Shown piece after piece: positions 1 through 61,429 of a DNA stretch of 64,000 bases. Position 1 is the stretch's first letter. Every line of letters begins with the position of its first letter. The stretch lies in NCBI GenBank assembly GCA_043760135.1, contig JAYUPL010000007.1, positions 64,106 to 128,105 on the forward strand, given 5' to 3'. Below the pieces are notes generated by a model. It was given only the letters and a program-made list of their open reading frames with translations. It did no database searches and was not told the DNA's origin. The stretch comes from Candidatus Parcubacteria bacterium (GTDB taxonomy: Bacteria; Patescibacteriota; Minisyncoccia; Phycocordibacterales; CAIZLB01). The position numbers and the translations under genes are program-made.

Positions 1-361
1 ACCTATCAGATGGATATTGGACGATGCTTTTGCATTCGTAAAAAAAGAATTACGAAGAGGAAATACCTATCAAGGAATTATTATGGACCCTCCAGCCTTC
101 GGCCGTGGGGCAGCAGGGCAGGTGTGGAAGCTTGAAGAACAGTTTGTGGACTTTGTACAAGAAACAGCAAAGCTATTGGCTGACGATGCCTTATTTTTCG
201 TTGTAAACGGGTATGCGAGCGGATACTCTCACATTGCCTATAAACAAAACCTAGAAGCGATATTTTCCAAAGGAAAGGTGGAAAGTAAGGAGCTAACCAT
301 CGAGGACTCTACTGGAAAATTATTACCTTGTGGAATCGTAGCTAGATGGAAGTCTGAATAA
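1..361 (+). CDS. 3' fragment of a class I SAM-dependent RNA methyltransferase (RlmI/RlmK-like); 5' end lies outside the window
   Basis: ORF is open to the window edge; DPPAF motif (IMDPPAFGRG) typical of RlmI-type rRNA methyltransferases. Confidence 0.5.
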   Translation, partial: PIRWILDDAFAFVKKELRRGNTYQGIIMDPPAFGRGAAGQVWKLEEQFVDFVQETAKLLADDALFFVVNGYASGYSHIAYKQNLEAIFSKGKVESKELTIEDSTGKLLPCGIVARWKSE

Positions 362-457
362 CTTGACTTGGTTTTAGTATTTGTTATTATAACTATATTC
401 CTACATTCGATTCCGAAAGCGAATCAATGATCCAGATATCAAAATCTGGTGACTACA

Positions 458-850
458 TTAAGAAAGCTCTAATAGAGATATTAGTTGCTTTTTTATTTTA
501 GCGAAGTCTCCAATATTTATATATCCAATATAATAATAGAATCGATTAATAGAAATTAATCTGATTTGATTTAACATAATCCAATTCTTTTTATTATTAA
601 TATTATTTAATTCATAAAACCAAGATCCTGAATTTTTCTGTGTTGTTAAGGGTAATATTATACAGGTTTTACTATCTAATTTTTTAAGAATTAGCACAGG
701 ACGAGAAAAATTATCGCCAACTCCATCTTGTTCTTGCCCAATATTTTTACCAATTTTGCACCACCAAATATCCCTTTCTCTAACAAGGATATCCATATCT
801 TTTATAGCTTTCTTTTTTTCATTCCATTCGTCATATATGTTTATATTCAT
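458..850 (-). CDS. MazF/PemK-family endoribonuclease toxin-like protein (solitary)
   Basis: Motifs DIWWCKIG..GQEQDG...RPVLIL and ILPLTTQK...ILNQIRLI align with E. coli MazF (GDLIWVDF..GSEQAGHRPAVVLS; CVPCTTQSKG); paralog of 18412..18774. Confidence 0.6.
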   Translation of the reverse strand: MNINIYDEWNEKKKAIKDMDILVRERDIWWCKIGKNIGQEQDGVGDNFSRPVLILKKLDSKTCIILPLTTQKNSGSWFYELNNINNKKNWIMLNQIRLISINRFYYYIGYINIGDFAKIKKQLISLLELS

Positions 851-862
851 CTAAATATAATA

Positions 863-893
863 CAAAAATTACAATAAAGTATTCTTGAAGAAG
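863..893 (-). promoter_or_regulatory. Conserved upstream element TTCTTCAAGAATACTTTAT (copy 1 of 5), ends 13 nt before the MazF-like start
   Basis: Same core as 18368..18399, 42309..42330, 53704..53734 and 60631..60662. Confidence 0.45.
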
Positions 894-953: not shown

Positions 954-1889
954 TCATATAAGCAAATTTTTGATTTTATTTTCAAACTCTTCATCTTGTG
1001 TATTAAACCAAACAATCTTCTCCTTTAATTCTTTATTGTTCCTAAACCAGGTTTTTTGCCTTTTGGCATAATGGCAAATCGCAAAATATAATTTTTCTTT
1101 GAACTCGTTCATTGTCAATATGCCTGTCAGTAGATCTGAAATAAATTTATATTCTAAACCTAGCTTTTGTAATTTTTCATGAGTAATTTTATTTTCTTTT
1201 AATAAATTCTCAACCTCCTGAATCATTCCTTGATCCAATCTTTTGTCTATTCTTGTTTGAATTCTTTTTTGTAAAATTTCATACTCAGTATCGAGTCCCA
1301 TAATAATGTTTTCATATTTATCATTAATTTTTATTTCAGGAATATATTTAAGTTCGGTAATAATCTCTATCGCTCGGATAACTCGTCTTTTATTTTTTAT
1401 GTCTATTTTTGAAATATTTGCATCATATTTTTCGGCGAGATTTTTTAATTCATTTTGTAAATATTCTAAACTTTCTTTTTCTAATATTTCTCTCAATTCT
1501 GGATTTTGTTTTGCAGGTGCTCCAGCTATTTCAAAGAGAAGGGCGTTGATATATAAACCTGTACCTCCGCAGACTATAGGGGTAATATTTTTTGATAATA
1601 AATCGTCTATAATTTTATTTGCATCTTGAGCATATTGAAAAACAGAATACTCCTGATCTGGGTTTAGTATGTCCAACATGTGATGAGGTACACCTTTCAT
1701 TTCATCTTTCGTTATTTTTCCAGTGCCGATATCCAAGTGTTTATAAATCTGTCGTGAGTCAGCAGAAATTATCTCGGAATCAAGGTTATATTTTTCTTTT
1801 AACCATAGAGAAATAGACACAGCAAGATCTGATTTACCGATGGCTGTGGGTCCTATTATGCTTATAATTTGAGGTTTTTTTCTGGACAT
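954..1889 (-). CDS. miaA: tRNA dimethylallyltransferase
   Basis: P-loop GPTAIGKS and full-length MiaA-like sequence (QIYKHLDIGTGK, CGGTGLY). Confidence 0.9.
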   Translation of the reverse strand: MSRKKPQIISIIGPTAIGKSDLAVSISLWLKEKYNLDSEIISADSRQIYKHLDIGTGKITKDEMKGVPHHMLDILNPDQEYSVFQYAQDANKIIDDLLSKNITPIVCGGTGLYINALLFEIAGAPAKQNPELREILEKESLEYLQNELKNLAEKYDANISKIDIKNKRRVIRAIEIITELKYIPEIKINDKYENIIMGLDTEYEILQKRIQTRIDKRLDQGMIQEVENLLKENKITHEKLQKLGLEYKFISDLLTGILTMNEFKEKLYFAICHYAKRQKTWFRNNKELKEKIVWFNTQDEEFENKIKNLLI

Positions 1890-1932
1890 GTATCTTATTT
1901 TTATACTATATTTCTGCTATAATTCAAACTAT

Positions 1933-4686
1933 ATGAAAAAATTCCTAAAAATCTCAATCCTTGCGATTTCATTATTTATTTTCAACAGAGCCGAGGCCAC
2001 TGATGCCATTGTTGGAAATATTGAGCTACAAACAACCATTTTCCAAGGTATTGGAAATACTCCGAGGCAATCTGTTGTGGTGGGGACCAAACTGTATGTT
2101 ATGAATGCAGGTTCTCACAATGTGTCTGTTGTTGACACAACTACGAATGAGGCAGTTGCGATGATTACTATCCCTGGTTTTACCCCTACTCCTGGATTTA
2201 TTATTGCTGTTGGTACAAAAGTGTATGTGCTTAATACTTCAACTAGTGATGTGAGTATTATAGACACAGTAACTGATACTGTCACTCAAACTATCACCAT
2301 TGGAGGTCTTCCTGCGCATGCAACTCTTGTTGGATCAAAATTGTACATTACGAATAATGGATCTGACAATGTCAGTGTGCTTGACACGGCTACGGACACC
2401 ATAACAGACACAGTATCTGTTGGATCAAATCCTCTATCTTCAACATTGGTTGGCACCTCAACTTTGTATGTAAATAATTACGGCGGTTTTAGTGTGTCCG
2501 TAATAAATACAAACACTAATACTGTAACTGATACTATTACTGTAGGGGATTCTCCTATTAGTTCAACACTTGTGGGCACAAAACTATATGTAAATAATCA
2601 GAACAGTGGAGGTTCTGTTTCCGTGATCAATACAACAACGAACACAGTTACTTCTACGTTAACAGGAACCGTGATAGGGCCTATTTCTTCAACACTGGTT
2701 GGTACCTCAACTTTGTATGTAAATAACCACGGTAGTTCGACTGTCTCTGTAATCAATACAAATACTGATACAATAAGTCAAACAATAAATATTGTTCGTT
2801 CCGCACCCACATTTTCCACACTAGTTGGTACCAAGCTCTACGTGGGCACTCAAGAATTAGATGTTAATAGTTCAAGTACTGTGGTTATTATTAATACAAC
2901 AAACAATACAGTGGTAGAAAATGTGTCTGTTGGAGGAGGTCCTTTGAGTCAAACCTTGGTGGGTACAAAGCTGTATACAAACAATGCTAACAGCGGTGTT
3001 CACAATGTCAGTGTACTCGACACAGTTACTGACACTGTTATTGCTACAATACCTTCATACAGAGCACTTGCACCAGAAGCTCAGTTTTCAACCGTAATAG
3101 GTACAAAGCTGTACGTGAATAACTCAGGTTCAACTGTGGTAACTGTTGTTGATACATTGACGGATACTATTTTGCAAAATATAACGGTTGGTACTGGACC
3201 ACTAAACTCTTTACTGGTGGGTACGAGACTATATGTCAATAATTATCTCTCCAACAATGTTTCAGTTGTTGATGTAAATACAAATACGGTCATAGCAACT
3301 ATTCCAGTTGGTGGTAATCCAAATGATCTAGTACTGTCTGGTACGAAATTGTATATAAATAATTCTGATTCTGGAACTATAACTGTGATTGATACAACAA
3401 ATAATACAGTTCTCACAACTGTTACAGTTGGTACGTATCCATCGCACCCAACCCTACTTGGCACCAAACTGTATGTTCACAATTTTTATTCGAACACTGT
3501 TTCTGTGATTGATACTGCAACTGATACAGTTGTGCAAACTATAGCTGGTTTCAGTTACCCTCGTTCTTCAACATATGTAAATGGAAAATTATATGTAAGT
3601 AATGGTGGTGGTAATAATTTAAAAATTATTGATCCTAATACAAATACGATTGTTCAAACTATTGCAGTAGGTGAGAGTCCAATGAAATCAACATTATTGA
3701 ATGGAATGTTGTATGTAAATAACTTTGATTCAAACTATATTTCTGTTGTAAATCCTATAACAAATACTGTAACTCAAATCATTCCAAGTGTGGGTGTAAA
3801 CTCTGTGTATATAAACTCTTCTAATAGTAAGCTCTATGTTGCTGGTGCAGATTCGAATCTTGTTATTATAGATTTATCAAATAATGCAATTGTTCAGACT
3901 ATTCTTATTGATGGATATCCTGCATCGGCAAATATTATGGGTACAAAAATGTATGTGAATAAGTATGACTCAGAACTTACTATAATCCAGTTAGATGCAC
4001 CTGATGTTATTTCAACAGTAAATGGCTCAGCTCTGACTATTATTTATCCTCAAACTTTATCTACTTCATCGATTCCTAGTTTATCAAATTTTACCTTTGG
4101 GAGTCATGGTATTCAGGCTATTGCCATAGGGGGTAATCAGGTTAATCTAACATTGTCATCTCCAGTTACTCCTACAGAGGATTTCTCAGTTACTTATACT
4201 GTTCCTGTCGTTAATCCGTTACAAGATGTACTTGGAAATAACCTTGCGCCGATAATTGCAAAACCTGTTATTAATCTTACACCATCTACTGTCTCAAGTT
4301 CCGCGTCAGGAGGCTCAAGTGGTGGTGGAAGTGGTGGTGGAAGTGGTGGTGGATATGTCGCAGCTAATTTACCAAAAATAGTAAATGCTACATCAACCAA
4401 TGTTATAGCAAGTTCTTCGCTCGCTTGTCCTTACTTTACACAGAATTCAAAACAAGGAAGTAAAAATTTAGAAGTGATTAAAATAAAAAAATTCTTGAAT
4501 GAATTTTCAAAAGAAAAACTAAATATAAATTCAAATGTGTATGACCTAGCCCTACTTAATGCAGTGAAAAGATTTCAAGTAAAATATAAAGCCCAAATAT
4601 TGACTCCTTTAAAACTTAAATATGGTACAGGTTTATGGTATGCATCTACGAAAGCTCAGGCTAATAAGGTGGTGGGTTGTAGGTAA
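1933..4686 (+). CDS. Secreted/cell-surface protein with about 20 YVTN-type beta-propeller repeats, a Gly/Ser linker and a C-terminal peptidoglycan-binding-like domain
   Basis: Signal peptide MKKFLKISILAISLFIFNRAEA; reiterated about 40-aa units (LYV.N.GS..VSVIDT.T.TV..TI.VG..P..TLVGTK); linker SGGSSGGGSGGGSGGG; C-terminus (VYDLALLNAVKRFQVKYK...TGLWY) resembles PG_binding_1. The track ORF starts at 1888, but MKKFL at 1933 is the likely start. Confidence 0.7.
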   Translation: MKKFLKISILAISLFIFNRAEATDAIVGNIELQTTIFQGIGNTPRQSVVVGTKLYVMNAGSHNVSVVDTTTNEAVAMITIPGFTPTPGFIIAVGTKVYVLNTSTSDVSIIDTVTDTVTQTITIGGLPAHATLVGSKLYITNNGSDNVSVLDTATDTITDTVSVGSNPLSSTLVGTSTLYVNNYGGFSVSVINTNTNTVTDTITVGDSPISSTLVGTKLYVNNQNSGGSVSVINTTTNTVTSTLTGTVIGPISSTLVGTSTLYVNNHGSSTVSVINTNTDTISQTINIVRSAPTFSTLVGTKLYVGTQELDVNSSSTVVIINTTNNTVVENVSVGGGPLSQTLVGTKLYTNNANSGVHNVSVLDTVTDTVIATIPSYRALAPEAQFSTVIGTKLYVNNSGSTVVTVVDTLTDTILQNITVGTGPLNSLLVGTRLYVNNYLSNNVSVVDVNTNTVIATIPVGGNPNDLVLSGTKLYINNSDSGTITVIDTTNNTVLTTVTVGTYPSHPTLLGTKLYVHNFYSNTVSVIDTATDTVVQTIAGFSYPRSSTYVNGKLYVSNGGGNNLKIIDPNTNTIVQTIAVGESPMKSTLLNGMLYVNNFDSNYISVVNPITNTVTQIIPSVGVNSVYINSSNSKLYVAGADSNLVIIDLSNNAIVQTILIDGYPASANIMGTKMYVNKYDSELTIIQLDAPDVISTVNGSALTIIYPQTLSTSSIPSLSNFTFGSHGIQAIAIGGNQVNLTLSSPVTPTEDFSVTYTVPVVNPLQDVLGNNLAPIIAKPVINLTPSTVSSSASGGSSGGGSGGGSGGGYVAANLPKIVNATSTNVIASSSLACPYFTQNSKQGSKNLEVIKIKKFLNEFSKEKLNINSNVYDLALLNAVKRFQVKYKAQILTPLKLKYGTGLWYASTKAQANKVVGCR

Positions 4687-17375: not shown

Positions 17376-18344
17376 ATGCAAAAGTTTTTATTTATTAAAC
17401 CCGCTCACATAGATGATGAAGCAACTCGTTACAACGTGCAGGAAGATATTGTATCGCTCGAACAAACTCTCATAAAGGCGTATAAGGATATTGATATAGA
17501 AATATGTGCAGTAACAGCTGACTCTGAATGGTTAATGCACGGTAGAAAAATTACTCCTGAAATTAAATTAAAAAAATATGACAAGGTGTTTGTGTTTGTA
17601 CACAACATTGACAAGGCTGTTGACAATATAAAAGAAAATACAAAATTGTTTGCAAAGCAGGCTACTTTTCTATACAAGGCTGAGGATGAGATTTTTCATA
17701 ATGCAGAAAAGCTGGAGGAGTTGGTAAGAATAAATAATACTGAAAACTTTAAGATAAAATTCCCCCACCAGATTCATGTGAGCACCAAAGAATATAATGA
17801 AAATGCAACAACCACCAATCAAATAGTTGCTAAGTTCATGAGGCATTTATTTTTACCAATTCACACACTCGAGACAAAACATTCAAAGCATAAGAATCAT
17901 AAAAATATAAACCTTTCGTACAACGCTCAAGAGTTTGTGGAAAACATCGATAGTCTGCGTCACAAATTTGACGAATTAACTTTTCGTGAATATATCGAAG
18001 GGTACCAAGTGTATGTGGCTGTTATTCCTGATTTTAAAGGGGAAGAATTTTATACATTTATTCCACTTATAGAAAAAGATGTAAACGGTATTCCAATGTT
18101 TGAGGTTGCACCACTTTCAATGCTTGAAAAAGAAGGGGTTAGAAATATTGTTAAAAACATTTCTAAAATATCATTTCAGCGCCAACCTGTTGTGTACAAG
18201 CTTTCGGTTCATAAAAAGAGAGGAATCTTTGTTCAACATTCTTCATCATTGTTAACGTATTTGTTGTATTACCCTGACTTTGTATTTGAGTCCGTGGGGT
18301 CTTTAGGGTTGGATATAGAGCAATTTTTGGCGAAGATTTTTTAG
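17376..18344 (+). CDS. Hypothetical protein with weak ATP-grasp (D-Ala-D-Ala-ligase-like) C-terminal similarity
   Basis: REYIEGYQVYVAVIPDFKGEEFYTF and a C-terminal segment reminiscent of Ddl; no Gly-rich ATP loop. Confidence 0.3.
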   Translation: MQKFLFIKPAHIDDEATRYNVQEDIVSLEQTLIKAYKDIDIEICAVTADSEWLMHGRKITPEIKLKKYDKVFVFVHNIDKAVDNIKENTKLFAKQATFLYKAEDEIFHNAEKLEELVRINNTENFKIKFPHQIHVSTKEYNENATTTNQIVAKFMRHLFLPIHTLETKHSKHKNHKNINLSYNAQEFVENIDSLRHKFDELTFREYIEGYQVYVAVIPDFKGEEFYTFIPLIEKDVNGIPMFEVAPLSMLEKEGVRNIVKNISKISFQRQPVVYKLSVHKKRGIFVQHSSSLLTYLLYYPDFVFESVGSLGLDIEQFLAKIF

Positions 18345-18367
18345 AAATAATTAATCTTTTCTTTCAG

Positions 18368-18399
18368 ATTTCTTTATGAGAACTTTATAAGGTGTTTGG
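18368..18399 (+). promoter_or_regulatory. Conserved upstream element ATTTCTTTATGAGAACTTTATAAGGTGTTTGG (copy 2 of 5), ends 13 nt before the MazF-like start
   Basis: Near-identical to 53704..53734. Confidence 0.45.
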
Positions 18400-18411
18400 T
18401 AGGATTATTGG

Positions 18412-18774
18412 ATGAATGAAAATAACACAGACAAAGAAAAAGATTTAATTGTAAAACTAGGTGAAATATTTTGGTGCTATTTGGGTGTAAACGTTGGTTC
18501 AGAACAAAACGGAAGTGGAACTGATAAAACTAGGCCAGTATTAATTATTAATAAGTTTTCAGAGAAATTTTTTCTCGGAGCACCATTGACTAGTAAAAAA
18601 CATAAAGGCGATTGGTATGTAAAAATATCCTTTAATGATTCCTGTGTAATATTAAATCAAGTTAGGCCTATTGATATAAAAAGATTAATAGATAAAGTTG
18701 GGCAAATATCCGAAGAAGATCTAGAAAATATTTTATATAAATATGTTGATCTTATAAAACACAAAAAACACTAA
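18412..18774 (+). CDS. MazF/PemK-family endoribonuclease toxin-like protein (solitary)
   Basis: GEIFWCYLGVNVGSEQNGSG...RPVLIIN; APLTSKKHKGDWYVKI; ILNQVRPIDIKRL; paralog of 458..850. Confidence 0.6.
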   Translation: MNENNTDKEKDLIVKLGEIFWCYLGVNVGSEQNGSGTDKTRPVLIINKFSEKFFLGAPLTSKKHKGDWYVKISFNDSCVILNQVRPIDIKRLIDKVGQISEEDLENILYKYVDLIKHKKH

Positions 18775-19017
18775 ATAAATAGTGTTTTTTGAGCTAAACA
18801 AAAGTATTTTCATACTTTCGGCTGGGTAGTCGACCCCGAAACTGTAGCTTCATTTTAGCAAATAAGTTTAACTTGTCAAATTTATATAAATCGTCACTCG
18901 ACCAAAGTCGAAAGGATTGATAAAACTTCAACCCTCAAAGGTGATATTATTGTACCAAAAATATAATCTCTGTCAAACCTCGAAAAACCAATAAATCTAT
19001 GCTAAAATATTGTCTAT

Positions 19018-19569
19018 ATGTCATACAATTTTTCAAATTTCCTTACAAAAGCTAAATCCATAGAAGCTTGGCTACAAAACGAATATCAAAACATCAGAAC
19101 AGGTAGAGCATCAACAGCTTTTCTTGATCAAGTTCGTGTAGAATCATATGGAGAGATGGTTCCATTATCAAACGTGGCCTCGATAGGTATAGAAGATGCA
19201 AAATGTATCCGTGTATCTCCGTGGGATGGTGGGCTTATTAAAGCGATAGAAAAAGCTGTGATCGTAGCTGATCTTGGTGTTTCTACAGCCGTTGATGAAA
19301 AGGGTCTTCGTATCATTTTTCCTGATCTAACGGGAGAAAGAAGGATTCAACTTGCTAAACAAGCAAAAGAAAAACTGGAAGATGCTCGTGTATCTCTTCG
19401 TCAAGAAAGAAATGGAGTAAATGATGATTTGAATAATCAAAAGAAAGAAGGAGAGATGTCAGAAGACGACGTTGCAAGAGCTAAAAAAGAATTCGATAAA
19501 CATATGGAAACAGCCATGTCGTCACTCGACACATTATTCGCTAAAAAAGAAAAAGAAATTATAAACTAA
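19018..19569 (+). CDS. frr: Ribosome recycling factor
   Basis: Full-length Frr-like sequence (NIRTGRASTAFLD.V.VE.YG...L...A). Confidence 0.9.
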   Translation: MSYNFSNFLTKAKSIEAWLQNEYQNIRTGRASTAFLDQVRVESYGEMVPLSNVASIGIEDAKCIRVSPWDGGLIKAIEKAVIVADLGVSTAVDEKGLRIIFPDLTGERRIQLAKQAKEKLEDARVSLRQERNGVNDDLNNQKKEGEMSEDDVARAKKEFDKHMETAMSSLDTLFAKKEKEIIN

Positions 19570-24878: not shown

Positions 24879-25655
24879 TTATAATTGTACCCAAGTTTTT
24901 GGTAGGATTTCAAGTCTATCAGACGACTCCGTATTAGTCCATTGTTTTGGGGCTATAACTATTTTATGAGGATTCTTGTTGAGATATGCAGCCCACCAAG
25001 AAAATGTTGAGTTGGCAATAATATTATGTGAACACTGACTCATCAACATAAGTTCTTCAGCTTCAGATATGTCCCCATTTGAAACGAAAGTCTCAGCACC
25101 TATCTGTATATTTTTTTTTGCCCATTCGATGTCGTCTGAAAATATAAAAAAATGAGGAGTGTTGAGTTGCGATTTAATATGATGCAAGGCTTTGTAATAA
25201 TACTCTAGATCACATAGTCCGTGGTGACTGTTGTTTACATAATCACCACGACGTATATGAATTGAGACAGAATCAGTTTGTATATTTTTAGCCACTTCTT
25301 GTGCAGCCTGACTTAGGGGATTTTTTAAAGTAAATTCTTTTAGGACTTGATTTTTGATGTCGATAAAATATTTTTCACTTTGATAATAGCTGTAGTTTCT
25401 AGTTATTTTTTGCACAACTTTTTTGAAAATTTTTATAAGCGGATTTACGGGTATTTGTTTAAAATTTTCAGATAAACTAATGTTGAACTTATCTAGAAGG
25501 AAAGGGCGGTGGATATCTTTTCTGGTATTGTTAAAAAATGATGTATCAAATATAATGTGCTTTTTATCAATCAGGGATAATTTTAATCCATATGCATATT
25601 GAAAAAGTTGGTTACCGAGACCGCCTTTGATTGTGATTATTTTTGTTTGTGTCAT
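24879..25655 (-). CDS. GT11 alpha-1,2-fucosyltransferase
   Basis: GGLGNQLFQYA; HIRRGDY; ANSTFSWWAAYL. Confidence 0.85.
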   Translation of the reverse strand: MTQTKIITIKGGLGNQLFQYAYGLKLSLIDKKHIIFDTSFFNNTRKDIHRPFLLDKFNISLSENFKQIPVNPLIKIFKKVVQKITRNYSYYQSEKYFIDIKNQVLKEFTLKNPLSQAAQEVAKNIQTDSVSIHIRRGDYVNNSHHGLCDLEYYYKALHHIKSQLNTPHFFIFSDDIEWAKKNIQIGAETFVSNGDISEAEELMLMSQCSHNIIANSTFSWWAAYLNKNPHKIVIAPKQWTNTESSDRLEILPKTWVQL

Positions 25656-26411
25656 TTATTTTAGTATACTCCTTAGTTTGTCTATGGTTTTGGCGAGTAT
25701 GTATCCATTATACGATTTTTTATATTTTTCTATAATAAGTGCCTGAGTATCTTTCCCTACTTTTATTTTCATGGCATTGCTCTGACTATTATGTTTTCTG
25801 TAGGCAGTTGTGTATTGGTGTAGATTGGCGAACTTATATTTCAGGCCTATTTTAAGCCACAGGTCATAATCTTCCCAGATAGCAAGTCCAACATCATACC
25901 CACCCAAGTTTAATATATCTTCTTTACGATACAATACGCTTGAGTGGCAAAATAGATTTTTCATCAATAGAAGATTCTTAATTATAAAGTTACTTGAAGG
26001 GTATTTTACTTTTTTGATGGTGTGACCTTGTTCATCGACAATAATCATATTTGATCCTATAAGGGTGTGATCTTTGTGCAGGTCCAAGAACTCGTTTTGA
26101 AGAGAAAGTTTGTTGGTATCAATCCAATAATCGTCACTATCGAGCACTGCAACATATTCACCGGTCGACAGAGAAAGACCTTTGTTTCGATTTTTGGTTA
26201 TCCCTAAATTTTCAGAATTTTTAATGTATCTAATTCGAGAGTCTGTGTATGAAGAAATTATCTCCTCTGTATTATCAGTTGAACAATCGTCTACTATAAT
26301 CAATTCCCAATCTTGAAAAGTTTGAAAAAGAACAGAGTCGATGGCTTGTTTTATAAAATGTGCTCGGTTGTACGTACACATTTGTATGCTTATTTTTGGA
26401 GTGTGTGTCAT
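25656..26411 (-). CDS. Glycosyltransferase family 2
   Basis: ISIQMCTYNRAHFIKQAIDSVLFQTFQDWELIIVDDCSTDNT; LDSDD. Confidence 0.8.
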   Translation of the reverse strand: MTHTPKISIQMCTYNRAHFIKQAIDSVLFQTFQDWELIIVDDCSTDNTEEIISSYTDSRIRYIKNSENLGITKNRNKGLSLSTGEYVAVLDSDDYWIDTNKLSLQNEFLDLHKDHTLIGSNMIIVDEQGHTIKKVKYPSSNFIIKNLLLMKNLFCHSSVLYRKEDILNLGGYDVGLAIWEDYDLWLKIGLKYKFANLHQYTTAYRKHNSQSNAMKIKVGKDTQALIIEKYKKSYNGYILAKTIDKLRSILK

Positions 26412-29913: not shown

Positions 29914-30774
29914 TTATAAAATAATATTCTTATGGTTATCTTTATGCATAAACAAGAACATCCGTACACCTTTAGCTGGTGGATTATCTAGATCAAATTT
30001 CTTTAAGGTGCCATACTCGAGTATTTGAGTGCTGTATTCCAACGATTCGAGTAGTCTAATTGTTTCAGAAAAATTTTGGTTTTTGTATAGTCCATCACGC
30101 CCATCTTTTGTGTGACAAATTTCAACGAATAGTATTGGTTTATGTGTCTTTATGGAATCTAAGGCTCCTTTTAATACATCAAACTCAAATCCTTCAACGT
30201 CAATTTTAATAAAATTAATATGAGAAATCCCTTTTTCTTTTACAACATCATCCAGTCTTTTGATGGGGATGTTTAACTTATTCTCTGTATTCGTTGTGAA
30301 CTCTTTGATGAGAGTTGTGCCTGAACCAGCTGTATATATATCTATATTTCCGCTAGTTTCGCCTAATGCACATTCATTAATATCGACATTAGACAATCTA
30401 TTTAAATATACACTTTCTTTTATTGAATCGAAGTGAAGACTGATAGGCTCAAAGCTGTATGTTTTTGAATTTGGAAACATATAGGCTGACATTATTCCAT
30501 AATATCCGGTATTGGCACCTATATCTAGTAAGACAAAGTCAGATGAAAGTTGTGTCAGTATTTTTTGAACCAAAATGGTTTCTTCTTGCTCAACTACTCC
30601 GTTTGCTGCGATTCCATAAGCTATGTCGTTGATATCATACAGATTGCCACAATACCAAAAACCATCTTTTGATTTTACTGCGTGCGGATAGCTCAGGTTT
30701 GCTGTTGATATGAGTAGTATTTTTCTTTTTATTAAAATTCCTACAGCATTGATTAGTTTGTGTATTATTTTCAT
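29914..30774 (-). CDS. FkbM-family methyltransferase
   Basis: DIGANTGYY...FEP...IDFIKIDVEGFEFDVLKGA. Confidence 0.8.
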   Translation of the reverse strand: MKIIHKLINAVGILIKRKILLISTANLSYPHAVKSKDGFWYCGNLYDINDIAYGIAANGVVEQEETILVQKILTQLSSDFVLLDIGANTGYYGIMSAYMFPNSKTYSFEPISLHFDSIKESVYLNRLSNVDINECALGETSGNIDIYTAGSGTTLIKEFTTNTENKLNIPIKRLDDVVKEKGISHINFIKIDVEGFEFDVLKGALDSIKTHKPILFVEICHTKDGRDGLYKNQNFSETIRLLESLEYSTQILEYGTLKKFDLDNPPAKGVRMFLFMHKDNHKNIIL

Positions 30775-31512
30775 TTATTTTAATTTATTCTTTACAAATC
30801 TAATCACCCTGTTTGTTTTATTTTTCAAGCCGTCCAGTATCCACAGTGTTTTTTCTTTTGTAGTGGGTGTAAAATAGTTTATTTTTGAACCTGCTTTAAC
30901 TTTTCTACCAAAGACACCACTTTGATAACCTGTATTTTCGAGGCTAAAAAACTCCAATTGCCAGTCAGGTAAATTTTTGGCCCACCAGTTTTTACTTCTG
31001 ATATGCCACATGCTTTGCTGAATGTTTCTATCATATCTTTCGTCAAAAAAGAGTGCTGATCCTTCAGGTAGGATATTTACCTCCTTTAAAAAATCCTTTA
31101 CATAAAAATCCTTGATGTGTGACAAAACAGTTGAGGTAGTAATGAAAGCTGGTTCGTTGAGTTTTAACATTTTCATTCCATCAACCATATCCATGTTTAC
31201 AAACTCAAGATTTGAGAAATTTCCCCGTTCGGTGATAATTTGCTTATTTATTTCGATTATTTCTTTCACAGGCTCTATTCCAATAACTCTTTTAAATAGG
31301 GGTGATGTCTTGTGCATGAGCCATGCAGAACCGCACCCGATGTCTACGTGCGTGTGAATATTATTGAGCATACTTATTGCTTTTTCAAAGCCTAGTTTTT
31401 CGAACATCTTACCATCTTCCTGCTTTTTTAAAATATTTTGCACGTATTCGGGCGTATGTAGTTTCAAATAGTCTTGTTCATGTTCTTTAAAGCTTTGCAA
31501 ATCTTTCTTCAT
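30775..31512 (-). CDS. Class I SAM-dependent methyltransferase
   Basis: Motif I VDIGCGSAWL. Confidence 0.65.
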   Translation of the reverse strand: MKKDLQSFKEHEQDYLKLHTPEYVQNILKKQEDGKMFEKLGFEKAISMLNNIHTHVDIGCGSAWLMHKTSPLFKRVIGIEPVKEIIEINKQIITERGNFSNLEFVNMDMVDGMKMLKLNEPAFITTSTVLSHIKDFYVKDFLKEVNILPEGSALFFDERYDRNIQQSMWHIRSKNWWAKNLPDWQLEFFSLENTGYQSGVFGRKVKAGSKINYFTPTTKEKTLWILDGLKNKTNRVIRFVKNKLK

Positions 31513-42308: not shown

Positions 42309-42330
42309 ACTTTCTTTATTAGAACTTCAT
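42309..42330 (+). promoter_or_regulatory. Conserved upstream element ACTTTCTTTATTAGAACTTCAT (copy 3 of 5), upstream of the DUF3800 gene
   Basis: Same core as the other four copies. Confidence 0.4.
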
Positions 42331-42353
42331 CTCACTATTGTTATTATTTTTTG

Positions 42354-42911
42354 ATGACCAAAATCATATACATCGATGAATCAGGAATAAGCTCTAAGAT
42401 GGGGCATAGTGTACACGTGTCTTTATATATTGAGTTTAACAACCGTTTAGATTTATCAAACGAAATTACAAAGATAGAAAAACAACTTAAAATATCATAT
42501 ACACAATGGACCGAAATGCCCTGGAAGTTAAGATTAAAATTTGCTGAAAAGATAAAAGACTTAGACTTTGAGGTAAAAGCACTTGTTTACAGTAATCCTA
42601 TTTTACCGGAAGCAGGTTTAAGGATATCGTTGTTTGAGTTTGCTAAAGATAGTGGTATAGCAAGTATTTTTATTGATGGAAAAAAGAATAAGGGTTATGA
42701 GAAAGAATTAAAGGCCTTATTACGAAATAGGGGGATAAAAGTGTATGATCTAAGAATAATTGATGATAAAAAGGAGTCGTTAATACGAATTGCAGACTTT
42801 ATGGCTGGATTAATAAGGTCTTATACAGATTTTTCAAATAAGTACAGTATATTCATCTTTAATCTGTTAAAAGACAAAATTGAAATAGATAAAGCAAAAA
42901 TGCCCGATTAA
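42354..42911 (+). CDS. DUF3800-family protein
   Basis: IYIDESG N-terminal motif...LIRIADFMAG; the track ORF starts at 42351 (TTG), ATG at 42354. Confidence 0.5.
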   Translation: MTKIIYIDESGISSKMGHSVHVSLYIEFNNRLDLSNEITKIEKQLKISYTQWTEMPWKLRLKFAEKIKDLDFEVKALVYSNPILPEAGLRISLFEFAKDSGIASIFIDGKKNKGYEKELKALLRNRGIKVYDLRIIDDKKESLIRIADFMAGLIRSYTDFSNKYSIFIFNLLKDKIEIDKAKMPD

Positions 42912-43042
42912 GGGCATTTTCACTCCATGCGACAGGGCGCCGGCGCAGAGGATAAGGACTTTTACATCCACGGTCTAACGGACCTTTTTCGCCTCCTGCC
43001 TGTTACTCTTACTATTTTATCAAATCTGTAAAACCTGTCAAG

Positions 43043-53639: not shown

Positions 53640-53703
53640 AATGGAGATAATATACTATTTTTTAAGCCAGAAAGCAATACTTTTATTCGAAGTTTCTTTA
53701 TTA

Positions 53704-53734
53704 TTTCTTTATGAGAACTTTATTGAGGTTTTTC
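53704..53734 (+). promoter_or_regulatory. Conserved upstream element ATTTCTTTATGAGAACTTTATTGAGGTTTTT (copy 4 of 5)
   Basis: Near-identical to 18368..18399; partially duplicated just upstream (GTTTCTTTATTA). Confidence 0.45.
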
Positions 53735-53770
53735 TATGATATATGAATAACAACCAGAAATTTACAAAAA

Positions 53771-54154
53771 ATGAAAAATCTTATTAAAGTCTATTATTCA
53801 CTAGATCAAGGTATTCCTATTGACCATCATTTAGAATTAATCAGGATTCATGATAGTTGCGATATTTATATTTCCAGAAAGGCATTGAAACATTTTGTTG
53901 AAAGCCGAAAAAAAGAGATGATTGAAACCCGTAATCAGAAAGAGATCTGTGATAAGTTATGTTTTGCTGTTAAAAATGTAATTTTTACATATATAAAGTA
54001 TGACAGAATTGAACAATCATCACTAAATAGGTTGATATATATAAAATATTTTAAAAAATTGCGAAATTCCAGTTTAGGTATTGTGGTAGAACGAGTTGAA
54101 GACAGGAGTGAAATTTGTTCAATACATTTCAAGAAACACAAAAAACCACCTTAA
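53771..54154 (+). CDS. Hypothetical small protein, 'ISRKALKHFVESR' family (paralog 1)
   Basis: Paralog of 60741..61085 (HLELIRI...ISRKALKHFVESRKKEM vs FLELVFV...ISRRALKHFVESRSSEM); stop codon lies in a terminator loop. Confidence 0.5.
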   Translation: MKNLIKVYYSLDQGIPIDHHLELIRIHDSCDIYISRKALKHFVESRKKEMIETRNQKEICDKLCFAVKNVIFTYIKYDRIEQSSLNRLIYIKYFKKLRNSSLGIVVERVEDRSEICSIHFKKHKKPP

Positions 54155-54166
54155 AGTGGTTTTTTG
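54139..54166 (+). terminator. Rho-independent terminator (AAAAAACCACC-ttaaa-GTGGTTTTTT), stop codon in the loop
   Basis: Read from the sequence. Confidence 0.7.
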
Positions 54167-54175
54167 TGAGACTTA

Positions 54176-54283
54176 GGATGACGGCAAGGACAAATAATTA
54201 CTTACTTGTGTTTTCATCCATGAGTACGTTGATATTTCTACCAAGTCCGCAGCACAGCCGATTGTTAATTTTCTGTCGTTAAG
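54176..54283 (+). other. Conserved about 110-nt 3' tail (copy 1): GGATGACGGCAA...TTTCATCCATGAGTACGTT...CCAAGTCCGCAGCACAGCCGATTGTTAATTTTCTGTCGTTAAG; possible structured RNA
   Basis: Three conserved blocks shared with 61112..61214; GGATGA/TCATCC form a stem around a variable loop. Confidence 0.4.
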
Positions 54284-54316
54284 TCTTATGTAACAATATT
54301 ATCAAAAAAAATAACC

Positions 54317-54748
54317 TTGTCAATAAAAATGAAAAAAACAACAAATAATGAACAACATGGCTTTATAACCCTATTTTTTATATTGGGGGTATCATTTACT
54401 TTTCTAACCTGGATTTCGTTGAGTTCGGAAAGGGTATTTGGGTACATACGTATAAAGGATGATTTTATTGCATCCAGATCTGTACTACATGATCATATTC
54501 TCTGTGCTGATGCTTTTATTAATATAGTGATTGAATCTCGACATAATTTGAGTTTTAATGGTGGCATCTATAATTTTAAGAGGAATTTGTATTTCGTGGA
54601 TGATTTTTCATGCAATATTAAATCTATAAGCTCAACCCATGAAGATAACACTATTAAGACTGTTTTCTTTACTATTGGTGAATTTCGCTTTGAGTATCAG
54701 TTTAAAAATGGTTTTGTAAACTCTATCAAATCTTTCAATTTATTTTAG
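54317..54748 (+). CDS. Putative minor pilin / pseudopilin-like protein (non-canonical prepilin N-terminus)
   Basis: QHGFITLFFILGVSFTFL hydrophobic N-terminal segment immediately upstream of a canonical type IV pilin. Confidence 0.3.
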   Translation: MSIKMKKTTNNEQHGFITLFFILGVSFTFLTWISLSSERVFGYIRIKDDFIASRSVLHDHILCADAFINIVIESRHNLSFNGGIYNFKRNLYFVDDFSCNIKSISSTHEDNTIKTVFFTIGEFRFEYQFKNGFVNSIKSFNLF

Positions 54749-60630: not shown

Positions 60631-60662
60631 AATTCTTCAAGAGAACTTTATGTGGTCTTTGG
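60631..60662 (+). promoter_or_regulatory. Conserved upstream element AATTCTTCAAGAGAACTTTATGTGGTCTTTGG (copy 5 of 5)
   Basis: Same core; about 80 nt upstream of paralog 2. Confidence 0.4.
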
Positions 60663-60740
60663 TAAAATTCTTAAATCACTATAAATACAAGCACAATTAA
60701 AAAATTAATAAATGAATATTTTCATTTAAAAACAGGCGAA

Positions 60741-61085
60741 TTGATTGCCGATTTTTTAGAATTGGTATTTGTTTGTAAACTGAACAGTAAAGACGTATCT
60801 ATCTCTAGGAGGGCATTAAAGCACTTTGTGGAGAGTAGGTCTAGCGAAATGGCAGATAGTTACGAAAACAACAGTATCTTGGAAAAGATGTATTACATAA
60901 TAGATAATGTCGAAGATGTGCTCAATATGTATGATGTCTTTCAAACTATGAATGGCAGGTATTATTTTACTAAGCATTATTGGAAACTAGATAAACCCTC
61001 AATAAGAATAGTTTTAGAATTGGTAGATAATCACTTTGAAATAGTTACGATGTATTATAAGAAAACTAAAAACACCACCGAATGA
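60741..61085 (+). CDS. Hypothetical small protein, 'ISRRALKHFVESR' family (paralog 2; TTG start, lacks the N-terminal ~17 aa of paralog 1; possibly degenerate)
   Basis: Paralog of 53771..54154; the frame has no ATG; stop codon in a terminator loop. Confidence 0.4.
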   Translation: MIADFLELVFVCKLNSKDVSISRRALKHFVESRSSEMADSYENNSILEKMYYIIDNVEDVLNMYDVFQTMNGRYYFTKHYWKLDKPSIRIVLELVDNHFEIVTMYYKKTKNTTE

Positions 61086-61099
61086 ACGGTGGTGTTTTT
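61068..61099 (+). terminator. Rho-independent terminator (AAAAACACCACCG-aatgaa-CGGTGGTGTTTTT)
   Basis: Read from the sequence. Confidence 0.7.
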
Positions 61100-61111
61100 A
61101 GTTGTAGTCTG

Positions 61112-61214
61112 GGATGACGGCAACGCCTATTTTTCAATAGACACTTTCATCCATAAGTACTTTGTCTTTCAACAAAGTCCGCAGCAAGCCGATTGGTTAT
61201 TTTCTGTCCTTCAG
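61112..61214 (+). other. Conserved about 105-nt 3' tail (copy 2): GGATGACGGCAA...TTTCATCCATAAGTACTTT...CAAAGTCCGCAGCAAGCCGATTGGTTATTTTCTGTCCTTCAG
   Basis: Block-wise identical to 54176..54283 with variable spacers. Confidence 0.4.
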
Positions 61215-61429
61215 ATTACGTTGTTTATTTTAGCAAAATATATTTTATTGTCAAATTTTGTAAAAATAGCACCCTATAAAAGCGAAAAAGTGCCTGACAC
61301 CGCTTAGGGCACAGGACCTTTTTCTTCTGTGTTTTTATAATATCAAATCTCTGATTGTTGTCAAATTTTACCCCATAAAAAACAAAATCCGACAATGGAG
61401 TTCTTACATTTTTAGTATATAATAGACGC

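What the first reader, a model, noticed from the sequence alone, without database searches (positions are those of the whole stretch)
17376..18774. Solitary MazF/PemK-like toxin genes (two paralogs) without adjacent antitoxin; one follows a degenerate ATP-grasp-like gene
458..850 (minus strand) and 18412..18774 are clear paralogs with MazF signature blocks. Neither has a small upstream ORF in the antitoxin position (upstream spacers are about 65-100 nt and carry the conserved element instead). Either the antitoxins are tiny or RNA-based, or these are domesticated RNases. The upstream 322-aa protein at 17376..18344 has only vestigial Ddl-like features.
Basis: partly seen in the sequence, partly recalled or inferred. 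Interest (0 to 1): 0.55.

Follow-up and report, generated by a model that had tools for sequence, protein, structure and literature searches.

The report
MazF toxins paired with convergent small RNAs
The two "orphan" MazF toxin genes each sit in a small mobile cassette with a conserved small-RNA gene pointing back into the toxin's 3' end, so the missing antitoxin is most likely an RNA, which is unusual for a toxin family regarded as the textbook protein-antitoxin (type II) case.

Summary
Observation confirmed. 18412..18774(+) and 458..850(-) encode MazF/PemK-family proteins (Pfam E=3e-14 and 3e-12; 34% identical). The catalytic Arg/Thr are conserved. Neither gene has a protein antitoxin: the upstream spacers hold no ORF of 8 aa or more.

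Immediately downstream of each gene lies a convergent small-RNA gene. It has a near-consensus promoter (TTGAC[AT]-N16-TGnTAnnAT), a fixed start, two 5' hairpins, and a terminator straddling the MazF stop codon. For MazF-2 the RNA is 18845->18752 (94 nt); for MazF-1 it is about 397->500.

Promoter, MazF and sRNA move as one ~0.55-0.63 kb cassette, shown by four gene neighbourhoods and two empty sites. In 65 of 84 relatives' loci the convergent promoter is present (same-strand control: 7). Tetraloops, G·U pairs and stability place the structure on the antisense strand. A homolog on C. jejuni pVir has a published TSS at 31119 (my prediction: about 31118) and a 77-nt Northern-verified sRNA.

Best reading: an RNA antitoxin acting type I-like through the 3' overlap. 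A type III-like mechanism is not excluded.

The 322-aa neighbour has a D-Ala-D-Ala-ligase fold and is unrelated to the cassette. Three further window cassettes share the design.

The parts
18359..18405 (+). MazF-2 promoter region. Three direct repeats of (T/A)TCTTTAT spaced 11 bp (18359, 18370, 18381), then a -10 box TAGGAT at 18400..18405, exactly 6 nt before the ATG. There is no -35 consensus.
   Evidence: Motif is over-represented. It aligns across the 5 window copies and is conserved upstream of MazF relatives in other neighbourhoods. Sequence read.
18412..18774 (+). MazF-2, 120 aa, a PemK/MazF-family endoribonuclease toxin
   Evidence: Pfam PF02452 E=2.8e-14. PHROG 'MazF-like growth inhibitor' E=1e-17. 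Closest solved relative is B. subtilis YdcE/EndoA, E~1e-11, with invariant R41 and T60 aligned to R25 and T48.
18762..18791 (.). Bidirectional terminator hairpin straddling the MazF-2 stop codon. The last codons (KHKKH) form the 5' arm.
   Evidence: Terminator-like hit on the minus strand with 12 pairs. It forms helix 3 of the RNA consensus.
18752..18845 (-). Predicted convergent sRNA, short isoform (94 nt): 5'-ACAGUUU, hairpin 1 (GGG/CCC), hairpin 2 (AAAGUAU-GAAA-AUACUUU), terminator
   Evidence: RNAfold z=-5.3. Alifold gives 26 pairs, 6 with compensatory changes, across 7 sequences from 4 neighbourhoods. Covariance model scores 115.9 bits. No Rfam family matches.
18852..18879 (-). sRNA promoter P2: TTGACA-N16(..TTTGC)-TAAAAT
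   Evidence: 11 of 12 consensus positions plus TG. The hexamers and the spacing to ACAG are conserved while the spacer varies in 6 relatives.
18949..18976 (-). Second, distal sRNA promoter P1 (TTGACA-N16-TACAAT). It would give a ~190-nt isoform (18942->18752), homologous to the long form in L008/L019.
458..850 (-). MazF-1, 130 aa, a PemK/MazF-family toxin with the main-clade N-terminal motif (DEWNEKKKAI)
   Evidence: Pfam E=2.7e-12; alignment; relatives
857..892 (-). MazF-1 promoter region: element TTCTTCAAGAATACTTTAT (892..874) and -10 TATTAT (862..857), 6 nt before the ATG
363..500 (+). Convergent sRNA gene of MazF-1. Promoter TTGACT-N16-TGtTATTAT (363..390). Predicted RNA about 397..500, with two hairpins followed by a terminator antisense to the last MazF-1 codons.
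   Evidence: Promoter hit. Fold z=-4.1 with the main-clade plan.
17376..18344 (+). Neighbour gene, not part of the cassette: a 322-aa protein with a D-Ala-D-Ala ligase (ATP-grasp) fold, very divergent in sequence
   Evidence: empty-site comparison
42312..43041 (.). Analogous cassette: upstream element (42312), DUF3800 ORF 42354..42911(+), convergent sRNA about 43007->42885(-) from TTGACA-N16-TAAAAT (43041)
53694..54323 (.). Analogous cassette: upstream element (53705), p127 ORF 53771..54154(+), convergent sRNA about 54289->54140(-) from TTGACA-N16-TAATAT (54323)
60633..61364 (.). Analogous cassette: upstream element (60633), p114 ORF 60741..61085(+) (a paralog of p127), convergent sRNA about 61220->61058(-) from the promoter at 61254, and a second promoter at 61364

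Best explanation
Each MazF gene is the toxin half of a compact, horizontally mobile toxin/RNA-antitoxin cassette. The cassette has three parts. (1) A weak promoter without a -35 box, whose -10 box lies 6 nt before the ATG, so the mRNA may be leaderless. (2) The MazF endoribonuclease ORF. (3) A convergently transcribed, structured sRNA of about 85-95 nt, driven by a near-consensus extended -10 sigma-70 promoter and ending in a hairpin that straddles the MazF stop codon. The sRNA is made in large excess and is perfectly complementary to the 3' end of the toxin mRNA: the last ~20-30 nt of the ORF, the stop codon and the 3' UTR. I propose it acts type I-like. Loop-loop contact at the shared terminator hairpin would extend to a duplex, destabilising the mRNA (by RNase III or 3' exonucleases) or truncating it to a non-stop message, so little MazF is made. 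When transcription stops or the cassette is lost, the sRNA would decay first and MazF would cleave cellular RNA, giving addiction or abortive infection. Shown here: the gene geometry, the promoter, structure and strand conservation, the mobility as a unit, the absence of a protein partner, and expression of the homologous sRNA in C. jejuni. Inferred: that the RNA neutralises the toxin, and by which route.
For: No protein antitoxin: the spacers hold no ORF of 8 aa or more, and upstream neighbours in 78 relatives' loci are heterogeneous and not MazE-like. The toxin looks active: R41 and T60 are invariant and align with EndoA R25/T48. Convergent promoter: all 7 TTGAC[AT]/16-nt/TG-extended promoters in the 64-kb window point into the 3' ends of the 5 cassette genes and none drives a protein gene. 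65 of 84 relatives' loci have one, against 7 with a same-strand promoter. The RNA is structured and lies on the antisense strand: 75 of 186 loops are UUCG or GNRA against 3 of 183 on the sense strand; G·U pairs 161 vs 94; the fold is more stable in 50 of 61; paired z-score test p=0.001; 56 of 59 have a hairpin at the same position, with 50 different arm sequences. All 61 end in a terminator, with the 3' end a median of 29 nt inside the ORF and a median length of 85 nt. The cassette moves as a unit: four neighbourhoods and two empty sites with conserved flanks. Experimental anchor: for the pVir0047 homolog in C. jejuni 81-176, dRNA-seq gives a TSS at 31119(-), where I predicted about 31118. Its coverage is 16164 against 28 for the toxin mRNA TSS, and the 77-nt sRNA CJpv3 was seen on Northern blot (PMC3656092 Tables S5/S12). 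The same architecture surrounds unrelated proteins (DUF3800, p127/p114) in the same genome, which favours a generic antisense mechanism over protein-specific RNA binding.
Against: No transcript data exist for this organism, and toxicity and neutralisation are untested. The 5' two-hairpin part of the RNA (ACAAAU, UUCG hairpin, GNRA hairpin) is conserved across proteins only 35-45% identical, which pure antisense action does not require. In C. jejuni the mapped sRNA 3' end (31043) stops 5 nt short of the ORF, so the overlap there may be with the 3' UTR only. There is no cognate-specific complementarity to the mRNA 5' end. 19 of 84 loci lack a detectable convergent promoter. MAFFT/RNAalifold failed on the diverse set, so covariation there rests on alignment-free tests.
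Confidence: 0.5

Rival explanations
1. Type III-like: the structured sRNA binds the MazF protein directly and blocks its RNA-binding groove as a pseudo-substrate or decoy, as ToxI does for the MazF-fold toxin ToxN. The cis-overlap would be incidental.
For: The 5' single strand and the two tetraloop hairpins lie outside the ORF overlap yet are conserved across distant family members. The sRNA is in large excess over the toxin mRNA in C. jejuni, and its mapped 3' end does not enter the ORF. From my own knowledge: ToxN has a Kid/MazF-like fold and is inhibited by RNA.
Against: There is no tandem-repeat RNA array and no ToxN/AbiQ signature. The same cassette design surrounds unrelated proteins, which would require independent evolution of RNA-protein recognition each time. 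The 5' motif varies (ACA, AUA, CUA).
Confidence: 0.2
2. The sRNA is real but is not an antitoxin. MazF would be a regulated or domesticated RNase kept silent mainly at transcription, by the activator-dependent repeat promoter. The convergent RNA would only insulate or terminate transcription, or have a separate trans-acting role.
For: The toxin promoters lack a -35 box and carry 11-bp phased repeats shared by 5 genes, suggesting a common regulator. The toxin TSS is very weak in C. jejuni (28 reads).
Against: MazF and the sRNA are strictly linked across mobile insertions and across phyla. The cassette is carried on plasmids and prophages, which fits an addiction module better than a housekeeping RNase. 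The upstream repeats are confined to the window's close relatives, whereas the sRNA is family-wide.
Confidence: 0.15
3. A conventional protein antitoxin exists but is encoded elsewhere in the genome, or a host factor neutralises MazF.
For: Only 64 kb of the genome was examined. Orphan toxins with trans antitoxins are known.
Against: The cassette is found in at least 4 neighbourhoods, on plasmids and on prophages, always without a partner ORF. A mobile toxin that depends on an unlinked antitoxin would be hard to transfer.
Confidence: 0.07
4. The promoter-like and hairpin features are chance matches in AT-rich DNA plus ordinary terminators.
For: The genome is 34% GC, and promoter-like hexamers are common (13 found against ~10 expected in the local scans).
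Against: Orientation asymmetry of 65 vs 7. All 7 strict sites in the window fall at cassette 3' ends. The start position and hexamers are conserved while the spacer varies. Tetraloops show a strand bias. An experimental TSS lies at the predicted base in C. jejuni.
Confidence: 0.03

Closest known systems
Type II MazEF / PemIK (E. coli MazF, B. subtilis EndoA/YdcE with EndoAI)
   Same: Same toxin family (PF02452). The closest solved structures are YdcE/EndoA (1ne8, 4mdx). The catalytic Arg/Thr are conserved.
   Different: There is no MazE/PemI gene or any small ORF upstream, and no operon. A convergent sRNA gene is present instead. NCBI nevertheless annotates the cultured relatives as 'type II ... 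PemK/MazF family toxin'.
Type I TA modules with convergent 3'-overlapping antisense RNAs (B. subtilis txpA/RatA and bsrG/SR4; E. faecalis par RNA I/RNA II sharing a bidirectional terminator)
   Same: Convergent geometry, overlap at the 3' ends and shared terminator, a strong antitoxin promoter against a weak toxin promoter, small cassette size, and mobility.
   Different: Those toxins are membrane peptides under 60 aa, whereas here the toxin is a 120-130 aa RNase. Unlike par, there is no complementarity to the toxin mRNA 5' end.
Type I systems with enzyme toxins: SymE/SymR and RalR/RalA (reviewed in PMC8167048)
   Same: A nuclease protein toxin repressed by an antisense sRNA.
   Different: The toxin folds differ (AbrB-like SymE; the DNase RalR). 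SymR overlaps the 5' end, and RalA needs Hfq and pairs within the coding region.
Type III ToxIN / AbiQ / CptIN
   Same: An endoribonuclease toxin with a Kid/MazF-like fold, neutralised by RNA.
   Different: The type III antitoxin is a tandem array of ~36-nt repeats upstream on the same strand, processed by the toxin. No such array exists here, and PADLOC gave no significant match (only a chance-level AbiQ hit to the Ddl-like neighbour, E=0.014).
C. jejuni pVir: sRNA CJpv3 next to pVir0047 (Dugar 2013), and the validated type I pair cjrA/cjpT (Shen et al. 2016, Mol Microbiol 101:909)
   Same: pVir0047 is a member of this MazF subfamily (36% identity to MazF-1). It has the same convergent sRNA, with a TSS and Northern evidence.
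   Different: I could not read Shen et al., so whether CjpT is pVir0047 and CjrA is CJpv3 is unverified. The other candidate is CJpv2, which lies over small hydrophobic ORFs. If CjpT is pVir0047, one member of this kind is already experimentally established.
aMEF antisense RNA of E. coli mazEF (PMC8749433)
   Same: An antisense RNA at a mazF locus.
   Different: It acts on a canonical type II mazEF operon and stimulates expression. It is not a replacement for MazE.

Membership tests
PemK/MazF toxin family (Pfam PF02452) | Profile HMM score above the curated gathering cut-off | tested here: met
   53.7 and 47.3 bits against a cut-off of 23.1. The PHROG MazF-like family also matches.
PemK/MazF toxin family (Pfam PF02452) | Catalytic Arg and Thr/Ser equivalent to B. 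subtilis EndoA R25/T48 | tested here: met
   R41 and T60 are invariant in 14 sequences and align to R25/T48 of 1ne8/4mdx. The catalytic role of those residues is from my own knowledge of the EndoA structure papers.
PemK/MazF toxin family (Pfam PF02452) | Sequence-specific endoribonuclease activity and growth inhibition | not testable with these tools
   Needs expression and cleavage assays.
Type II MazEF/PemIK toxin-antitoxin system | Adjacent co-transcribed gene for a small protein antitoxin (MazE/PemI, AbrB- or RHH-type) | tested here: not met
   No ORF of 8 aa or more in either upstream spacer. The neighbours are the Ddl-like gene, frr, miaA and a methyltransferase fragment. Upstream ORFs in 78 relatives' loci are heterogeneous and not antitoxin-like.
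Type I toxin-antitoxin system | cis-encoded antisense RNA gene overlapping the toxin transcript | tested here: met
   This is predicted from the promoter, start site and terminator geometry. Transcription is demonstrated only for the C. jejuni homolog.
Type I toxin-antitoxin system | The RNA blocks translation or stability of the toxin mRNA rather than binding the protein | not testable with these tools
   Only the complementarity is shown. There is no 5'-end pairing signal.
Type III toxin-antitoxin system (ToxIN/AbiQ/CptIN/TenpIN) | Tandem-repeat RNA antitoxin array upstream of the toxin on the same strand | tested here: not met
   TRF finds no array of ~30-40-nt units near either gene. The upstream spacers are 67 and 103 nt.
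Type III toxin-antitoxin system (ToxIN/AbiQ/CptIN/TenpIN) | Toxin belongs to the ToxN/AbiQ-type families | tested here: not met
   No PADLOC hit for either MazF.
Any Rfam RNA family (including known antitoxin sRNAs and the pemK motif) | Covariance-model match | tested here: not met
   Nothing credible at E<=10 on window 18700..19050. Nothing at the sRNA positions in 20 diverse loci at E<=1. The gathering scan found tRNAs only.
D-alanine-D-alanine ligase (ATP-grasp), for the 322-aa neighbour | Three-domain Ddl fold | tested here: met
   The AF2 model has pLDDT 84.9. The top 50 Foldseek PDB hits are all Ddl/Van ligases, E~1e-13, TM~0.6.
D-alanine-D-alanine ligase (ATP-grasp), for the 322-aa neighbour | Sequence-profile membership and the Mg/ATP ligands (E. 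coli DdlB D257/E270/N272) | tested here: inconclusive
   No Pfam, NCBIfam or PDB-sequence hit. By eye, the topologically equivalent strands read YKLSVH and IFVQHSSS, suggesting the ligands are replaced, but no residue-level structural alignment was available.

The most novel reading that the evidence does not exclude
A large MazF subfamily (about 1,600 clusters at 50% identity), spanning candidate-phyla-radiation bacteria, Campylobacterota plasmids and prophages, is neutralised by a dedicated structured ~85-nt RNA instead of MazE, possibly by direct RNA-protein binding. That would be a new RNA-antitoxin class for the paradigm type II toxin. In this Parcubacteria lineage the same plug-in design (activator-type promoter, toxin, convergent sRNA) would govern at least three unrelated toxin-like families as one regulon, giving minimal-genome bacteria a family of RNA-guarded abortive-infection or addiction cassettes.
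Probability: 0.25. Interest if true: 0.85.

Novelty: new variant of a known kind. Interest (0 to 1): 0.68.

Why it matters
MazF is the model type II toxin, and databases label these genes "type II PemK/MazF family toxin" even though no antitoxin gene is present. If an RNA is the partner, three things follow. First, a sizeable fraction of "orphan" MazF genes is explained and is currently mis-typed. Second, type I-like control extends to a new toxin fold and to candidate-phyla-radiation bacteria; the PMC12390103 abstract places type I systems so far only in Proteobacteria, Firmicutes and Tenericutes. Third, the system is easy to test, because the cassette is only ~0.6 kb and a cultured homolog (C. 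jejuni pVir0047/CJpv3) already has transcript evidence. The recurrence of the design around DUF3800 and a RelE-like family suggests a general way for reduced genomes to keep toxins without protein antitoxins.

Tried and rejected
1. A tiny peptide antitoxin in the upstream spacers: rejected. There is no ORF of 8 aa or more. The 26-aa and 45-aa ORFs inside the sRNA region are not conserved: L008 stops after 6 codons, L015 lacks the AUG, and the distal segment is absent in L003/L004/L006.

2. The upstream element as an RNA antitoxin or operator specific to MazF: rejected. It also precedes DUF3800 and p127/p114, and it looks like a promoter.

3. The Ddl-like gene or the EVE-domain gene as a partner: rejected, because the neighbourhoods vary and empty sites exist.

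4. Rfam identity, including a remembered 'pemK motif': no match.

5. MAFFT plus RNAalifold on 33 diverse sRNAs predicted no pairs. This was an alignment failure, so I replaced it with alignment-free tests.

6. par-like pairing to the mRNA 5' end: no signal, p=0.31.

7. The single-protein genome-contig scan gave only 2 loci, and the viral-contig scan gave 6 weak loci.

8. 'Leaderless' as a special feature: only a modest enrichment, 53% against 31% of ordinary window genes, p=0.012.

9. Attempts to read Shen et al. 2016, or to find any text defining CjpT, failed.

10. p127/p114 fold: only weak RelE/BrnT-like hits, E>=0.046.
Full report
OBSERVATION. The two ORFs are real and are MazF/PemK-family proteins. 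18412..18774(+) (120 aa, "MazF-2") scores 53.7 bits (E=2.8e-14) and 458..850(-) (130 aa, "MazF-1") scores 47.3 bits (E=2.7e-12) against Pfam PemK_toxin, whose cut-off is 23.1. They are 34% identical (E=2e-22). A profile of the subfamily finds B. subtilis YdcE/EndoA as the closest solved structure (E~1e-11). The subfamily-invariant R41 and T60 align with EndoA R25 and T48, so the RNase site looks intact. The upstream spacers (67 and 103 nt) contain no ORF of 8 aa or more in any frame. The source is a low-GC Candidatus Parcubacteria genome.

THE UPSTREAM ELEMENT. TTCTTNANGANNACTTTAT occurs 7 times at 5 loci against 0.7 expected. It is not specific to MazF. It also precedes a DUF3800 gene (42354..42911) and two paralogous unknown genes (p127 at 53771..54154 and p114 at 60741..61085). 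It consists of three (T/A)TCTTTAT repeats spaced 11 bp, ending about 11 bp before a TAnnAT box. In both MazF genes that box lies exactly 6 nt before the ATG. I read it as a promoter architecture, either activator-dependent or a bent-DNA type, that possibly gives leaderless mRNAs. The leaderless signal is only modestly enriched relative to ordinary genes of this genome (53% vs 31%, p=0.012), and the genome hardly uses Shine-Dalgarno sequences (4 of 67 genes).

WHAT WAS MISSED: A CONVERGENT sRNA GENE. Relatives of MazF-2 at 57-76% identity sit in different neighbourhoods:
- Ddl-like | MazF | frr
- EVE | MazF | holB-like
- efp | MazF | recA
- TrwB-like | MazF | S11 peptidase
. In all of them a non-coding block downstream of the stop codon is conserved. 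On the strand opposite to mazF it reads TTGACA, then a variable 16-nt spacer ending in TTTGn, then TAnnAT, then 6 nt, then ACAGUUU. That is a textbook extended -10 sigma-70 promoter with a fixed start. It is followed by two hairpins and by a terminator hairpin whose 5' arm on the mazF strand is formed by the last MazF codons.

For MazF-2 the predicted RNA is 18845->18752 (94 nt; RNAfold z=-5.3). A second promoter at 18976 could give a ~190-nt isoform homologous to the long form in L008/L019. A 7-sequence alignment gives 26 consensus pairs, 6 of them with compensatory changes. MazF-1 has the equivalent gene: promoter 363..390(+), RNA about 397..500, z=-4.1. The small ORFs inside these RNAs are not conserved. 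Rfam has no matching family.

IS IT MORE THAN CHANCE? Several controls say yes.
- In the 64-kb window, all 7 promoters that combine TTGAC[AT], a 16-nt spacer and a TG-extended -10 point into the 3' ends of the five cassette genes. None drives a protein gene.
- Among 84 loci of family members (35-76% identity) with enough downstream sequence, 65 have a near-consensus convergent promoter, with a predicted start mostly 40-65 nt beyond the stop codon. Only 7 have a same-strand promoter in the same region.
- The predicted RNAs share one plan: 5'-ACAAAU, a GGC-UUCG-GCC hairpin, a second GC-rich hairpin, an A-rich linker containing the stop-codon complement, a terminator antisense to the last codons, and a U-tail. 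The window's clade is an AT-rich version of this plan.
- Strand assignment is clear. On the antisense strand, 75 of 186 predicted loops are UUCG or GNRA tetraloops, against 3 of 183 on the sense strand. G·U pairs number 161 vs 94. The fold is more stable on the antisense strand in 50 of 61 cases. The paired z-score test gives p=0.001.
- In 56 of 59 RNAs a hairpin occupies the same position, with 50 different arm sequences.
- All 61 end in a hairpin plus U-tract. The 3' end lies a median of 29 nt inside the ORF, and the median length is 85 nt.

MOBILITY AS A UNIT. Two relatives (L101, L102) have the Ddl-like gene followed directly by frr. Aligning these empty sites with the filled ones shows conserved flanks. 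The insertion, about 0.54 kb in L006 and 0.63 kb in the window, consists of exactly the promoter element, MazF and the sRNA gene up to its TTGACA box. The Ddl-like gene is therefore an accidental neighbour.

EXPERIMENTAL ANCHOR. The subfamily is large: about 1,600 representatives of 50%-identity clusters at E<=1e-10. It includes genes on Campylobacter, Helicobacter and Nitratiruptor plasmids and on CJIE4 prophages. All are annotated as "type II ... PemK/MazF family toxin" and none has a partner gene. These show the same convergent promoter and hairpins.

For pVir of C. jejuni 81-176 (gene pVir0047, 30634..31038) I predicted a minus-strand start near 31118. The published dRNA-seq tables list a TSS at 31119(-) with coverage 16164, against 28 for the pVir0047 mRNA TSS. 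They also list a 77-nt sRNA, "CJpv3" (31119->31043), detected on Northern blot (PMC3656092, Tables S5 and S12).

A type I pair, cjrA/cjpT, has been validated on pVir (Shen et al. 2016, cited in PMC10470494 and PMC7826846). I could not read that paper. The alternative candidate locus, CJpv2, lies over small hydrophobic ORFs. So whether CjpT is this MazF-family protein remains open.

MECHANISM. Best-supported reading (confidence ~0.5): an RNA antitoxin acting type I-like through the 3' cis-overlap and shared terminator, as in txpA/RatA, bsrG/SR4 or par, but with an RNase toxin. In favour:
- The overlap is universal.
- The promoters are asymmetric in strength, strong for the RNA and weak for the toxin.
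- The same design recurs around unrelated proteins in this genome. These are DUF3800 and the p127/p114 family, whose model weakly resembles RelE/BrnT toxins at E>=0.046.

Against, or in favour of a type III-like protein-binding RNA (~0.2):
- The non-overlapping 5' hairpins are conserved.
- The C. jejuni sRNA 3' end stops 5 nt before the ORF.
- The ToxN precedent shows a MazF-like fold inhibited by RNA.

There is no par-like pairing to the mRNA 5' end and no ToxI-like repeat array. Other rivals are a regulated RNase whose sRNA has another role (~0.15), a trans-encoded protein antitoxin (~0.07) and chance (~0.03).

THE 322-aa PROTEIN. It is strongly conserved in this lineage (62-87% identity in ~40 relatives) but invisible to sequence profiles. 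Its AlphaFold model (pLDDT 84.9, pTM 0.80) matches D-Ala-D-Ala and D-Ala-D-Lac ligases over the full length (E~1e-13, TM~0.6, 8-15% identity). I could not verify this at residue level. The gene lies among peptidoglycan genes (PBP2 upstream, an S11 carboxypeptidase downstream).

NOVELTY AND VERDICT. The components are all known: the MazF fold, convergent antisense antitoxins, and enzyme toxins under type I control such as SymE and RalR. I did not find the combination in Rfam or in the searchable literature. Current annotation calls these genes type II toxins. One member may already have been validated as cjrA/cjpT. I therefore rate it a new variant of a known kind, of good interest, and directly testable.

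Noticed in passing
window 42312..43041; 53694..54323; 60633..61364: Three more cassettes share both the upstream TTCTTTAT-repeat promoter and a convergent structured sRNA driven by TTGACA-N16-TGnTAnnAT. They surround a DUF3800 protein and two paralogs (p127, p114) of an uncharacterised family.
   Followed up: partly
window 53771..54154 and 60741..61085: The p127/p114 family has 39 homologs, no Pfam match, and the motifs ISRKALKHFVESRKKEM and EICSIHFQKRK. Its AlphaFold model (pLDDT 79) has only weak PDB matches, but the top ones are RelE-superfamily RNase toxins (BrnT E=0.046, HigB1, Cami1). It may be a new RelE-like toxin family.
   Followed up: partly
window 18756..18791, 54128..54165, 61058..61100, 42890..42925: In all five cassettes the terminator hairpin straddles the stop codon. 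The Lys-rich C-termini (KHKKH*, KKHKKPP*, KKTKNTTE*, DKAKMPD*) encode the A-tract that becomes the U-tail of the antisense RNA, so RNA function appears to shape the protein C-terminus.
   Followed up: partly
whole window: Only 4 of 67 ordinary genes have a Shine-Dalgarno-like sequence, and 21 of 67 have a -10-like box 5-8 nt before the start codon. This organism appears to rely little on SD-led initiation and may use many leaderless mRNAs.
   Followed up: no
L101:3470-3612, L102:3470-3607, L015:2990-3110: The empty Ddl-like/frr spacers carry a long imperfect palindrome (TCCGTTTCTGGTCCTCGGAGG...CCTGCGGAGAAACTCATTCC). A reverse-complement copy of the same kind of hairpin lies beside the MazF cassette in L015. 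It looks like a small dispersed palindromic repeat of this lineage.
   Followed up: no
window 61089..61307 (+): The 72-aa ORF here lies entirely inside the p114 sRNA/promoter region and is probably not a gene.
   Followed up: no
window 1888..4686 (+): A 932-aa protein is made of many ~40-residue repeats (…GTKLYV.N..S..VSVIDT.TNTV…), typical of a beta-propeller surface protein. It is divergently adjacent to miaA.
   Followed up: no
window 17..361 (+): A 114-aa ORF at the window edge is the C-terminal part of an RlmI-like 23S rRNA m5C methyltransferase (weak NCBIfam hit). The MazF-1 sRNA promoter starts 2 nt after its stop codon.
   Followed up: no
L100 (pVir 25228..25703): The region under the C. 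jejuni sRNA CJpv2 holds only small hydrophobic minus-strand ORFs (35-58 aa), which are classic type I toxin candidates. It is not annotated in the current RefSeq record.
   Followed up: partly
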